Below, one piece after another: positions 41,201-44,200 of a DNA stretch of 64,000 bases. This DNA comes from Escherichia coli (lineage in GTDB: Bacteria; Pseudomonadota; Gammaproteobacteria; Enterobacterales; Enterobacteriaceae), in NCBI RefSeq assembly GCF_044324785.1, contig NZ_CP172128.1; one strand, 5' to 3'. Positions within the stretch are counted from its first letter, which is position 1. Each line of letters begins with the position of its first letter. The position numbers were made by a program.

Positions 41201-44200
41201 GCGTGACTACATCAGTATCATGCCTAAACCAGACGGGTTAACGGCAGCAAAGAACCTTGCAGAGGCGTTCGAGCATTATAACGAATGGCATCCGCATAGT
41301 GCACTGGGTTATCGCTCGCCACGGGAATATCTACGGCAGCAAGCCAGTAATGGGTTAAGTGATAACAGGTGTCTGGAAATATAGGGGCAAATCCATTATT
41401 TTTTTGTATGCTCAGTTATTGATGGATAATAATATTAAATGAATCAGTAAGTTCCTTACTCTTTCCCTCTGCACAGGTGGTTTTTTATAAAATTCTTCGA
41501 AAGGTAATACCTGATATCCCGGAGGCATAGCAACGAAGGGGATACAGATTAAAGACATAACACGGATAAGTCACCAGGAGGAATTATGTCTTGGATGAAA
41601 CTGACGGAAGCAGAACGTAAGCGTATCAACGATGCTTATGCCGCACAGGCTGCACAGTTAAAGTTGTCCGGCAGGGATGAACTGCCACGGGAAGTTAAGA
41701 GAAAAGTGCGTGTAAAAGTTTTGAGAATGATTCGGGCAGAGCGCAAAGCGAGAACCGCAAAGGCTCAACGAACAAAAGCGTATCGTGCCGCAGAGAACAC
41801 GTTTACCTGGCAGCCGGCGCGACGCAGGTGAGCCGGCCAGCGGAAGAGCCTGTACATAGATTTGTGTAATTGCCTGATTTTGATATGTTCAATCCAGCAT
41901 CAAATGAAGGTTAATTTATGGACGAAAAACAGTTACAGGCTCTGGCTAACGAACTGGCCAAAAACCTCAAAACCCCTGAAGACCTCAGTCAGTTTGATCG
42001 GCTGCTGAAAAAGCTCAGCGTTGAAGCCGCTCTCAATGCAGAGATGACACACCATCTTGGGTATGAGAAAAATCAGTCCAGACCAGGAGCTAACTCCCGC
42101 AACGGTTATTACACAAAGACCGTTATCACAGGCGACGGTCCACTGGAACTGCGTACTCCGCGCGATCGTGACGGTACCTTCGAACCACAACTGGTAAAGA
42201 AAAATCAGACCCGTATTACCGGGATGGATAACCAGATCCTCTCGTTGTATGCCAAAGGGATGACCACCCGTGAGATAGCCGCTGCGTTCAAAGAACTGTA
42301 TGACGCAGATATTTCACCGGCACTGATATCAAAGGTTACCGATGCCGTGATGGAGCAGGTTGTATAATGGCAAAACCGACCACTGGATGCTGTTTACCCC
42401 ATTGTTTATCTTGACTGTATCGTCCTGAAAGTTCGGCAGGACAGTCGCATCATCAACAAATCGGTGTTCCTGGCACTGGGCATCAATATCGAAGGTCAGA
42501 AAGAACTGCTGGGTATGTGGCTGGCCGAAAATGAAGGGGCGAAGTTCTGGCTCAATGTGCTGACTGAACTGAAAAACCGCGGTCTGAACGATATCCTCAT
42601 CGCCTGTGTGGATGGCCTGAAAGGCTTCCCGGATGCCATCAACACAGTATATCCGAAGGCCCGCATCCAGTTATGCATCGTGCATATGGTGCGCAACAGC
42701 CTGCGCTTCGTGTCATGGAAGGACTACAAAGCCGTCACTCGCGACCTGAAAGCGATTTATCAGGCTCCCACGGAAGAGGCAGGTCAGCAGGCACTGGAAG
42801 CGTTCGCTGCGGCCTGGGACAGTCGCTATCCTCAGATAAGCCGAAGCTGGCAGGCTAACTGGCCGAATCTTGCCACGTTCTTCGCTTATCCAACGGACAT
42901 CCGCAAAGTGATCTATACGACGAATGCCATCGAGTCGCTAAACAGCGTGATCCGCCATGCGATCAAAAAGCGTAAAGTGTTCCCGACAGACGACTCGGTG
43001 AAAAAAGTGGTGTGGCTGGCAATCCAGTCTGCGTCCCAGAAATGGACGATGCCGTTGAAGGACTGGCGAATGGCAATGAGCCGCTTTATTATCGAGTTCG
43101 GTGACCGCCTGGACGGTCACTTCTGAGAAAGGCATTTACACAGAATCTTAAACAGGCTCAAGTGAAGCTAAGCACACAATCAATTCAGGTCTTTGACATC
43201 CTCCATCTTAACTTCCAAAGGGTACTCCCGCCGACATAAGGCGGGAGTACCCTTTGGAAGTTAAGATGGAAAACCGACATAAGAACCCTCTGTTATCCTG
43301 AAACTCTTATATTTATATAACTTGTGAAGGCGTTATGCACACAACCAATCTTCGCAAAGTCGGCGTCTCGTTGACATCCTCCACGCCCTGACGAATGTGG
43401 AGGAATGTCAATATTAATGTCCGGGCCACTCCTGTTGTTCAGTGACGTGATGTGATATTTCTTCTTTAGCTGTAGCCTCATTCTGGAGGTTTGAAGTAAA
43501 TATACGCTCCATTGTTTGTGCAACCGATGGTGGCATTTTTTCTTCCACACGTTCCTCTTCCGGACAACTCTGTGTGATATAGCATACGTGCCGTTCTTCC
43601 CGGGATGTGGTATTGATGATGTGAACTGCCTTGTTCCACAGGCTGTTTCCCCGGGCAGAGATATCTGTATCATATTGCGGAAGCAGATCCAGCGATGTTT
43701 GTGTTTCGTTAAGCTGCTTCTGGAAGGTATCGATGATACGGTAAGGCTCTGTACGGTTTTTACGACGTTTACGGGATGGTTTTGCTGTCAGTACACCAAT
43801 AATGCTGCTGACATGCTCCGGTGTGGGAAAACGGCGCTGCACTGTCCTGGGGACGAGACGGCGGAGACGCTCCAGGCGGGGGGCTTCAACGGAAATATAG
43901 CGGTTGATGACCACCGGATCACTGTCGCAACTTTTCTCGCTGTCCGGAATATACACAGAGGCTGACGGCACCACATCCCCCTGGAAAACGGTAAAGAACT
44001 CACCGGCATTCAGTCTGATCAAATCCTGCACGTCGATTTTGCTTTCCATCTGGATGGTGATCTGGTTACCGTCCACCCAGGACTCACCCATCACACCATC
44101 GTGGCGCTGCAGGCTGCCCATTCTGGCCCTAGCCTCTTCACCGGCGGCATTTTTCACCGTTCTTGCCGTTTTGTCGTCACTGACAATGCGTCCGGCGAAT

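What the first reader, a model, noticed from the sequence alone, without database searches (positions are those of the whole stretch)
43160..43413. Exceptionally long perfect hairpin and flanking repeated 14-mers between IS1414 and trbC
A 27-bp perfect stem with a 7-nt loop (43207-43267) is far longer than a typical terminator stem. It is flanked by TTTGACATCCTCCA (about 43190) and an inverted pair TTGACATCCTCCAC / GTGGAGGAATGTCAA (about 43368-43410). This could be a miniature inverted-repeat element, a recombination or resolution site, or a structured RNA at the 3' end of trbC.
Basis: seen in the sequence. Interest (0 to 1): 0.45.

Follow-up and report, generated by a model that had tools for sequence, protein, structure and literature searches.

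The report
Palindromic scar of an IS200/IS605 transposon end
The long perfect hairpin is a leftover transposon end from an IS609-like (IS200/IS605-family, TnpA/TnpB) insertion sequence that has been turned into a perfect palindrome, and the flanking 14-mers are the opposite ends of older relatives, so this is transposon debris and not a plasmid control site.

Summary
The arms are 31 nt, perfectly paired, at 43202-43232 and 43240-43270, with loop GACATAA.

The first 45 nt from CCAT (43203-43247) are 100% identical to the CCAT target plus the left end (LE) of a 1.8-kb tnpA/tnpB IS200/IS605-family element. That element is common in IncI2 plasmids, E. coli, Klebsiella and Photorhabdus. In the intact element the hairpin stem is only 8 bp. 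Here the stem has been extended by an inverted copy of the LE terminus.

An empty IncI2 site shows that the element inserts 3' of CCAT with no duplication. The 59-bp core (43207-43265) lies exactly between CCAT on the + strand and CCAT on the - strand.

A sibling plasmid lacks the palindrome and has about 200 bp of decayed tnpB 3' end plus right end (RE) between the same two CCATs. The same replacement rule holds in an unrelated phage-plasmid family (170 bp replaced).

The repeated 14-mers are the reverse complement of the family's RE terminus (...GGAGGATGTCAA).

There is no terminator signature, no valid Rfam family and no cognate transposase in the window. How the palindrome formed is unresolved. 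It is either a collapse of two inverted LE junctions or a template switch.

Verdict: a new variant of a known kind, of moderate interest.

The parts
43160..43167 (+). AAGTGAAG, the right copy of the 8-bp target duplication of the IS1414-bounded block. It contains the displaced copy of the pemK stop codon (TGA, 43163-43165).
   Evidence: The same 8-mer is at 34105-34112, next to an inverted IS1414 end. L002 has one copy at the pemK stop.
43193..43206 (-). Right-end (RE) terminus relic: ATGGAGGATGTCAA on the - strand. It ends in the cleavage tetranucleotide TCAA (43196-43193). This is the last 14 nt of a decayed tnpB/RE relic that the sibling plasmid L002 still carries in full.
   Evidence: 12/12 identity to the RE terminus of the intact IS in every copy examined. 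In L002 the same 14 nt end a relic that encodes a TnpB C-terminus.
43203..43206 (+). CCAT, the target (transposon-adjacent motif) 5' of the + strand LE arm.
   Evidence: Empty versus filled IncI2 site...ctctccCCAT|ATATGAC versus ...CCAT|CTTAAC...GTCAA|ATATGAC. CCAT precedes every LE examined.
43207..43232 (+). Left arm, which is LE nucleotides 1-26 (CTTAACTTCCAAAGGGTA + 5' stem CTCCCGCC). The putative guide tetranucleotide GGTA is at 43221-43224.
   Evidence: 100% identical to the LE of the IS in L005. The stem is conserved, with one compensatory pair.
43233..43239 (+). Loop GACATAA, the native loop of the LE hairpin.
43240..43265 (+). Right arm: the 3' stem GGCGGGAG (native), then TACCCTTTGGAAGTTAAG, an inverted copy of LE nt 1-18. 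It replaces the native GGGAATTTGGAC... of the intact IS.
43266..43269 (-). CCAT on the - strand (ATGG on +), the target motif for the - strand arm. It is already present at this position in the palindrome-free sibling L002.
   Evidence: L002 reads ...ccagttATGGaaaaccgac. The same rule holds in the phage-plasmid family.
43274..43283 (+). CCGACATAAG, an exact direct repeat of the loop plus its flanking bases (43231-43240). It is also present in L002. Unexplained.
   Evidence: No general loop-to-target complementarity was seen at 27 other sites.
43371..43411 (-). Second RE-type module, immediately 3' of the trbC stop. On the - strand it reads TTGACAT(T)CCTCCAC - ATTCGTCAGGGC - GTGGAGGATGTCAA, ending in TCAA. 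Its 5' arm is an inverted copy of its own tail.
   Evidence: It is present in the siblings L002 and L003.
43414..45687 (-). trbC (757 aa), a backbone gene of the IncI-complex transfer region.

Best explanation
The hairpin is an inert scar of single-strand (peel-and-paste) transposition. It is two copies of the left end (LE) of an IS609-like IS200/IS605-family element (Y1/HUH transposase TnpA plus RNA-guided nuclease TnpB), fused head to head through the element's own TnpA-binding hairpin.

Shown:
- The sequence from CCAT through the loop and 3' stem is the authentic target plus LE.
- The element inserts 3' of CCAT without duplication.
- The 59-bp core sits exactly between a + strand CCAT and a - strand CCAT that both pre-exist in palindrome-free relatives, and it replaces the 170-200 bp that lay between them.
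- The palindrome allele still carries the last 14 nt of an older tnpB/RE relic, so it is the derived state.
- The 14-mers are right-end termini (...GGAGGATGTCAA, cleavage motif TCAA) of that relic and of a second relic next to trbC.

Inferred: both junctions were made by TnpA, one LE joined 3' of CCAT on each strand. This would happen either as two nearby inverted insertions or as one aberrant integration. The resulting inverted pair then collapsed by slippage or recombination between the 8-bp stem repeats of the two LE hairpins, deleting the IS bodies and the DNA between them. This resembles what I recall of Tn10 'nearly precise excision', which leaves a small palindrome.

Today the sequence has no right-end hairpin and no transposase in the window, so it should be immobile. 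Its only likely effects are structural. It could form a DNA hairpin or cruciform, and a 31-bp double-stranded RNA stem in any read-through transcript from trbC or IS1414.

My confidence that it is a palindromised IS200/IS605 left end is about 0.9. My confidence in the two-junction-and-collapse route is about 0.45.
For: Identity:
- 45/45 and 30/30 nt matches to the CCAT target plus LE of the IS in IncI2 plasmid L005.
- That IS encodes an IS200-type TnpA (NF033573, 142 bits) and a TnpB (NF040570, 360 bits).
- 91 E. coli genomes carry the whole element, and relatives are abundant in Photorhabdus.

Boundaries and target: empty versus filled site. LE and RE alignments show CCAT|CTT... and ...GAAT-hairpin-AGGATG-TCAA|, the same right guide and cleavage tetranucleotides as IS608 (PMC5934647). 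The LE stem is 100% paired, with a compensatory pair.

Replacement rule: window versus L002, and pEC16-2 (L004) versus 74 phage-plasmid relatives carrying ...CCAT-170 bp-ATGG.... The left junction of the Klebsiella copy lies at a pre-existing CCAT inside an IS3-family gene.

Register: all three enterobacterial palindromes end exactly at CCAT/ATGG.

Two parental LEs: the two arms of the Photorhabdus copy L015 carry two different natural LE haplotypes, TTAACTTCC versus TTTTCCTCC.

The Klebsiella copy carries the Klebsiella-type LE variant on both arms.

No function signal.
Against: - No plasmid in PLSDB has a full-length IS at either CCAT of the window's site or of the phage-plasmid site, so no intermediate has been seen.
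- Two independent insertions within 200 bp on opposite strands are very unlikely a priori. Some coupling (local hopping or a concerted reaction) has to be assumed and is not demonstrated.
- The right junction of the Klebsiella copy has no ATGG in the only relative available, a 97%-identical Serratia plasmid.
- Template switching at this same hairpin clearly does happen in the family (L008, L024) and could make a palindrome from a single LE.
- CCAT occurs about every 224 bp per strand orientation, so a 4-nt match at a junction is weak evidence on its own.
Confidence: 0.55

Rival explanations
1. Single-copy template switch. One IS inserted at one of the two CCATs. During replication or repair, the nascent strand switched template at the imperfect LE hairpin (native form TCCAAA-GGGTA-stem-loop-stem-GGGAA-TTTGGA). 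It copied the LE terminus and CCAT in reverse, then returned to its original template at a downstream ATGG by 4-5 nt of microhomology. This deleted the IS body and the adjacent flank.
For: L008 (Photorhabdus cinerea) shows exactly this signature on a smaller scale. Its loop is inverted, 11 nt of the 3' flank are converted to the complement of the 5' flank, and the return is at the native TTTGGA. L024 shows inversion of a second hairpin loop, CAC to GTG. Arm homogenisation plus spacer inversion is the published hallmark of template switching (PMC8604942, PMC7202029). In the window the junction microhomology is 5 nt (ATGGA), and read on the - strand the loop is inverted relative to a - strand IS, as in L008.
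Against: All three enterobacterial palindromes stop at the same register, exactly after CCAT, although about 26 other return points were available. The return would have had to skip every ATGG inside a 1.8-kb IS body in two independent cases and land 170-200 bp beyond it. The arms of L015 are two different LE haplotypes, which self-copying cannot produce.
Confidence: 0.3
2. A minimal mobile element, a REP/REPIN-like or MITE-like derivative. In this reading the 59-bp core, flanked by CCAT on each strand, is itself moved in trans by the family's TnpA and replaces the DNA between two inverted CCATs.
For: Units with identical boundaries occur at three or more unrelated loci: an IncK2/Z plasmid, an SSU5-like phage-plasmid and a Klebsiella IncF plasmid, plus L015 in Photorhabdus. 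Each strand presents an intact target, guide and hairpin. In form it resembles REP sequences and REPIN doublets, which are mobilised by IS200-like tyrosine transposases (PMC3337134, PMC8266576).
Against: There is no right-end hairpin and no TCAA on the same strand in L004 or L007, so canonical excision is impossible. In single-stranded form the guide GGTA and the target CCAT are buried in the perfect stem. Only three or four contexts were found in 72,556 plasmids and 5,426 E. coli genomes, with zero exact matches in the metagenome and viral collections. The Klebsiella variant matches the local IS haplotype, which is what independent formation would predict.
Confidence: 0.1
3. A functional plasmid element: a bidirectional terminator or RNA-stabilising hairpin between the convergent pemK and trbC units, or a site for a recombinase.
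For: It lies between convergent genes about 145 nt beyond the trbC stop. As RNA it would form a very stable 31-bp stem.
Against: There is no T-run on either strand and no terminator-like site. Sibling plasmids with the same backbone lack it. The sequence is 100% transposon LE. No recombinase gene is adjacent. The only Rfam match is a sub-threshold microRNA hairpin hit, 52 bits against a 95-bit gathering score.
Confidence: 0.05

Closest known systems
Left end of IS608 / ISDra2 / IS609-type elements (IS200/IS605 family)
   Same: It has a target tetranucleotide 5' of the end (CCAT here, TTAC in IS608). It has a subterminal hairpin about 20 nt inside the end and a guide tetranucleotide at the foot of that hairpin. 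There is no target duplication. The partner right end has GAAT-hairpin-...TCAA, identical to the IS608 right guide and cleavage site.
   Different: Here the end is orphaned and its imperfect hairpin has been made perfect and extended to the terminus and the target. As a result, an LE with its own CCAT is present on both strands.
PATEs (palindrome-associated transposable elements), the gene-less IS200/IS605 derivatives
   Same: It is non-coding, derived from family ends and dominated by hairpins (PMC3119063, PMC10055086).
   Different: A PATE keeps both an LE and an RE and remains mobilisable. This unit has two LEs and no RE hairpin. In the window only a 14-nt RE tail lies beside it.
REP / REPIN sequences mobilised by RAYT (TnpA-REP)
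   Same: The form is a tetranucleotide plus a palindromic stem-loop related to IS200-type ends, with inverted doublets forming a long hairpin (PMC3337134, PMC3333891).
   Different: REPs occur in tens to hundreds of copies per genome beside a domesticated transposase. Here there are three or four contexts in all, no RAYT, and each copy replaces target DNA.
Tn10 'nearly precise excision' remnant (recalled from memory; not retrieved)
   Same: A large inverted-repeat structure collapses between short direct repeats in its arms and leaves a small palindrome made of the outer ends.
   Different: The parental structure here would be two single-strand transposons at inverted CCAT sites, not a composite transposon. 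No such parent has been observed.
Quasi-palindrome template-switch mutations
   Same: Arm homogenisation and loop inversion at an imperfect inverted repeat are seen in family members L008 and L024 (PMC8604942, PMC7202029).
   Different: Typical events change a few bases. This one would add 22 nt and delete about 2 kb, with a fixed end point at the transposase target.

Membership tests
IS200/IS605-family transposon end (LE) | The sequence matches the end of an element that encodes a Y1/HUH TnpA | tested here: met
   45/45 nt identity to the CCAT target plus LE of the IS in L005. The TnpA matches NF033573 at 142 bits against a cut-off of 55, and the TnpB matches NF040570 at 360 bits.
IS200/IS605-family transposon end (LE) | Insertion 3' of a short specific target, with no target-site duplication | tested here: met
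   The empty IncI2 site reads ...CCAT|ATATGAC and the filled site reads ...CCAT|IS|ATATGAC. CCAT is invariant 5' of 13 aligned LEs whose flanks are otherwise unrelated.
IS200/IS605-family transposon end (LE) | A conserved subterminal hairpin on one strand, with a guide tetranucleotide at its foot | tested here: met
   The 8-bp stem is 100% paired in 13 copies, with one compensatory G-C to A-U change. GGTA lies 5' of the stem. That GGTA pairs with CCAT is inferred by analogy with IS608.
IS200/IS605-family transposon end (LE) | TnpA binds the hairpin and cleaves at the predicted site | not testable with these tools
   Needs biochemistry.
Complete or mobilisable IS200/IS605 element or PATE | Both an LE and an RE (hairpin plus TCAA) on the same strand | tested here: not met
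   The window has only the last 14 nt of an RE beside the palindrome and no RE hairpin or right guide. L004 and L007 have no RE sequence at all.
Complete or mobilisable IS200/IS605 element or PATE | A cognate transposase is available | tested here: not met
   tblastn of TnpA and TnpB against the 64-kb window gives no hit. The rest of the host genome was not available.
MITE | Short, non-coding, with terminal inverted repeats derived from an IS | tested here: met
   59-67 bp, with arms equal to the LE terminus.
MITE | Many dispersed copies with insertion-type junctions (simple insertion into otherwise intact targets) | tested here: not met
   Three or four contexts only, with none in the metagenome or viral collections. 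Each resolvable copy replaces 170-200 bp instead of simply inserting.
REP / REPIN | High copy number in a genome and association with a RAYT gene | tested here: not met
   Single copy per replicon. Of 5,426 E. coli genomes, 15 carry it, always on plasmids. TnpA scores only 23 bits against the REP-associated transposase model, whose cut-off is 80.
Intrinsic transcription terminator | A G+C-rich stem followed by a T/U run | tested here: not met
   No terminator-like site on either strand in 42900-43700. The tails are GGAAAACC and GGAGGATG.
Described structured RNA family | A match to an Rfam model above its gathering score | tested here: not met
   The only match is mir-5984 at 52 bits against a gathering score of 95, on both strands, which is a generic long-hairpin artefact.

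The most novel reading that the evidence does not exclude
The palindromes are the product of an undescribed side reaction of Y1/HUH single-strand transposition. In this reaction TnpA joins a left end to CCAT targets on both strands of one short stretch of DNA, replacing what lies between with an LE-LE' hairpin. Such units would be the first step from an IS200/IS605 end towards REP-like palindromic elements.
Probability: 0.15. Interest if true: 0.7.

Novelty: new variant of a known kind. Interest (0 to 1): 0.4.

Why it matters
For annotating this plasmid, the result is mundane. The striking hairpin and the 14-mers can be labelled as IS200/IS605-family debris in an insertion hotspot between pemK and trbC, not as regulatory or recombination sites.

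For transposon biology there is a modest point of interest. The same precisely bounded 'double left end' palindrome has arisen in at least three unrelated replicons. In the two resolvable cases it replaced the DNA between two inverted copies of the element's CCAT target.

I found no description of such a product for this family. The family is under intense study because its TnpB nucleases are the ancestors of Cas12. If the transposase makes both junctions, that would reveal a new failure mode of peel-and-paste transposition. It would also suggest a plausible route by which REP-like palindromes are born.

The analysis also yields the CCAT target motif and the end structure of a widespread enterobacterial TnpB element.

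Tried and rejected
- Terminator or promoter reading: the consensus scan found nothing.
- Known RNA family: only a sub-threshold microRNA hairpin artefact on the palindrome, plus weak RAGATH-18-like hits at tnpB 3' ends in related loci.
- Group II intron: an Arsenophonus hit lay under an intron maturase annotation, but the match is the LE of an IS inserted into that gene.
- Target choice guided by pairing between the LE loop and the target. This idea came from the 10-mer CCGACATAAG beside the palindrome. There was no enrichment at 27 independent insertion sites, so it was rejected as a general rule.
- Search for a full-length IS at the window's site, which would be an intermediate: none in PLSDB, and none at the phage-plasmid site.
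- Search for more solo palindromes: zero exact matches in metagenome contigs and viral contigs.
- Ancestral state of the right junction of the Klebsiella copy: the only relative (Serratia, 97% identical) has no ATGG there, so this is inconclusive.
- I first thought the pEC16-2 right junction contradicted the CCAT rule, because locus L034 reads ATGA. The common allele turned out to be ATGG.
- A literature search for Tn10 nearly precise excision did not return the original description, so that analogy rests on memory.
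Full report
**1. The observation**

The inverted repeat is real and longer than reported. The arms are 43202-43232 and 43240-43270, 31 nt each, 100% complementary, with a 7-nt loop GACATAA. It is the longest local hairpin in the 64-kb window; the runner-up has 18-nt arms. The region 43160-43420 folds far better than dinucleotide shuffles, as DNA (z = -10.8) and as RNA (z = -9.5).

The 12-mer TTGACATCCTCC occurs exactly twice in the window, at 43193 and 43371. The second copy forms a bulged hairpin with 43397-43411, directly after the trbC stop codon (43414-43416, - strand).

**2. Context**

The window is an IncK2/Z-type (I-complex) conjugative plasmid. In the uninterrupted backbone, L002 (pRM10042-1), the order is nikA-nikB-pemI-pemK, then about 390 bp, then trbC in convergent orientation.

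In the window pemIK is intact at 33405-34112. A 9-kb block bounded by inverted IS1414 ends, with an 8-bp duplication AAGTGAAG (34105-34112 and 43160-43167), separates pemIK from the region of the finding.

The decisive comparison is L002 against the window. L002 has no palindrome. Between ...catcctCCAT and ATGGaaaaccgac it carries about 200 bp. Read on the - strand, these 200 bp are the decayed 3' end of a tnpB gene (ACGDMVQSGRSLKQEP, 14/16 identical to TnpB), followed by a right end finishing ...GGGCATGGAGGATGTCAA. A weak RAGATH-18-like RNA motif lies there, as it does at tnpB 3' ends elsewhere. A second sibling (L003) has a type II restriction-modification system inserted inside that relic. 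The intergenic region is therefore an insertion hotspot.

**3. What the palindrome is made of**

BLAST against plasmids showed that the left arm, the loop and the first 8 nt of the right arm (43203-43247) recur in more than 150 plasmids. There this sequence is the end of a 1.8-kb element with divergent tnpA and tnpB genes.

- The transposase is an IS200-type Y1 enzyme, and the second protein is an RNA-guided TnpB.
- Part of the element is 97% identical to the chromosomal insQ that RefSeq annotates in E. coli K-12. From memory, that gene belongs to IS609, hence the label 'IS609-like'.
- 91 complete E. coli genomes carry the whole element.
- A scan of species-representative genomes found many copies in Photorhabdus and one in Klebsiella pneumoniae.

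An IncI2 plasmid without the element gives the empty site ...ctctccCCAT|ATATGACTC. The filled site is ...ctctccCCAT|CTTAAC...GGAGGATGTCAA|ATATGACTC. The element therefore inserts 3' of CCAT with no duplication, begins CTTAAC and ends GTCAA. This is the hallmark of the IS200/IS605 family (PMC5934647, PMC10055086).

Across 13 left ends the 8-bp stem CTCCCGCC/GGCGGGAG is always paired and shows one compensatory change. Across 11 right ends the pattern is GAAT (or GGAT), an imperfect hairpin, AGGATG, then TCAA. GAAT and TCAA are the same right guide and cleavage tetranucleotides as in IS608.

In the native left end the hairpin is a quasi-palindrome: TCCAAA-GGGTA-stem-loop-stem-GGGAA-TTTGGA. In the window the 3' side has been replaced by the exact complement of the 5' side, all the way to the terminus and through CCAT.

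The anatomy is therefore: CCAT (43203-43206) | LE nt 1-26 (43207-43232) | loop | inverted LE nt 26-1 (43240-43265) | ATGG (43266-43269). One further T/A pair extends the arms to 31 nt. Each strand reads 5'-CCAT|CTTAAC...: a left end with its own target on both strands.

**4. The 14-mers**

TTGACATCCTCC is the reverse complement of the family's right-end terminus GGAGGATGTCAA, which is invariant in all 11 aligned right ends.

The copy at 43193-43206 is the last 14 nt of the L002-type relic. Because the palindrome allele keeps this fragment, it is the derived state.

The copy at 43371-43384 belongs to a second right-end-like hairpin, which the sibling plasmids also carry. Its 5' arm is an inverted copy of its own tail.

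Both copies are followed on the - strand by a related 16-mer, ATTG(A/G)TTGTGTGC(T/A)TA (repeat D4). I did not explain this.

**5. Other copies of the palindrome**

The complete 67-bp unit (CCAT...ATGG) occurs in three enterobacterial contexts:

- the IncK2/Z group that includes the window;
- SSU5-like phage-plasmids (pEC16-2 and two others);
- Klebsiella IncF plasmids.

In 5,426 complete E. coli genomes, 15 carry it, always on plasmids.

*Phage-plasmid family.* The common allele reads ...gatcaaCCAT, then 170 bp containing a small ORF, then ATGGctgcttg. Seventy-four records are 100% identical across that right junction. The palindrome allele reads ...gatcaaCCAT|core|ATGGctgcttg. This is the same rule as in the window: the core replaces exactly the DNA between a + strand CCAT and a - strand CCAT.

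*Klebsiella copy.* Its left junction is at a CCAT that pre-exists inside an IS3-family transposase gene. Its right junction could not be resolved. This copy differs from the window by one base in each arm, symmetrically, and it matches the LE haplotype of the Klebsiella chromosomal IS.

*Photorhabdus.* Related forms occur there.
- L015 is a full palindrome whose two arms are two different natural LE haplotypes.
- L008 is an LE with an inverted loop and only 11 nt of arm extension.
- L024 is a 112-bp unit with the LE at one end, the inverted LE terminus at the other, and a second hairpin whose loop is inverted.

**6. How it formed**

Two routes fit the data.

*Route T (two junctions, then collapse).* TnpA joined a left end 3' of CCAT on each strand. 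The inverted pair then collapsed between the 8-bp stem repeats, leaving the fused hairpin.
- For: the fixed register (three of three end at CCAT/ATGG); pre-existing CCATs at both junctions in both resolvable cases; the heterogeneous arms of L015; and replaced lengths of 200 and 170 bp, which match the mean distance to the next inverted CCAT in naive DNA (about 224 bp) and not a distance that includes a 1.8-kb IS body.
- Against: no intermediate has been seen, and two independent nearby insertions are improbable, so an unproven coupling is required.

*Route S (template switch from one copy).* The nascent strand switched template at the quasi-palindrome of a single inserted copy and returned at a downstream ATGG.
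- For: L008 and L024 show the published signature of arm homogenisation with spacer inversion (PMC8604942, PMC7202029). The window junction has 5 nt of microhomology.
- Against: it explains neither the fixed register nor L015.

I favour T at about 0.45 against S at about 0.3. The identity of the sequence does not depend on this choice.

**7. What it does now**

Probably nothing specific.
- It has no right-end hairpin, and no family transposase is encoded in the window. By the family's rules it cannot be excised.
- It lacks a T-run, and no terminator-like or promoter-like site is found.
- Rfam gives only an artefactual hairpin match.
- Sibling plasmids do without it.

It can form a stable DNA hairpin or cruciform, and a 31-bp RNA duplex in read-through transcripts. 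Any effect on trbC mRNA is untested.

**8. Novelty**

IS200/IS605 ends, their relics and gene-less derivatives (PATEs) are well known. REP/REPIN palindromes related to this family are known as well. In the searches I could run, I found no description of a 'double left end' palindrome precisely bounded by inverted target motifs that replaces the intervening DNA, recurring in unrelated replicons.

I rate it a new variant of a known kind, with moderate interest (0.4). The most novel reading still open is a transposase-made two-strand product, a possible seed of REP-like elements. I give that a probability of about 0.15.

Noticed in passing
window 34105-43167: A block of about 9 kb bounded by two IS1414 ends in inverted orientation (GAGCCTGTTTAAG... 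at 34113 and ...CTTAAACAGGCTC ending at 43159). It is flanked by an 8-bp direct repeat AAGTGAAG and inserted at the pemK stop codon. It looks like a composite-transposon-type insertion carrying astA and IS3-family and IS21-family (IS100) genes.
   Followed up: partly
window 43274-43283 (and 43231-43240): The 10-mer CCGACATAAG, which is the hairpin loop plus its closing bases, recurs as a direct repeat 8 nt beyond the palindrome. It is also present in the palindrome-free sibling L002. A test for loop-to-target complementarity at 27 other insertion sites was negative, so it remains unexplained.
   Followed up: partly
window 43169-43184 and 43334-43349: A related 16-mer (TAAGCACACAATCAAT / TATGCACACAACCAAT) lies beside each of the two right-end termini. 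This suggests that the two right-end relics and their flanks are paralogous modules.
   Followed up: no
L003 (CP088867.1) 1150-3975: In a sibling IncK2/Z plasmid, a type II restriction-modification pair (cytosine methyltransferase plus endonuclease) is inserted inside the tnpB/RE relic at the same pemK-trbC site. The spacer is a cargo hotspot.
   Followed up: partly
L008 1488-1560; L024 4497-4608; L015 1902-1968: Photorhabdus genomes hold variant left-end derivatives. L008 is a partial palindromisation with an inverted loop. L024 is a 112-bp unit with inverted LE termini and a second inverted hairpin loop. L015 is a palindrome whose arms are two different LE haplotypes.
   Followed up: partly
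window 38968-39006: A second perfect hairpin (18-nt arms, 3-nt loop: TTTCCTTGTGGTTTTTAT / ATAAAAACCACAAGGAAA) inside the IS-rich block.
   Followed up: no
window 41918-43126: The IS1414 transposase reading frame next to the finding appears split into two ORFs (149 aa and 220 aa) instead of one ORF of about 400 aa. PLSDB lists no transposase CDS there in the matching plasmid. It is possibly a pseudogene.
   Followed up: no
window 30320-30357: A 15-nt inverted repeat (GTAATCGTATAACCG / CGGCTATACGATTAC) lies at the start of the nikA-nikB homology. It is probably the oriT repeat.
   Followed up: no
L037, L038, L039, L024, L009 and the window - strand (5' flanks of CCAT): Several insertion sites of the IS have a G/T-rich run just upstream of CCAT (GGTTTG, AGTTTCT, GGATTT, CGGTTTT). 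This may be an extended target preference, but it is not universal.
   Followed up: partly
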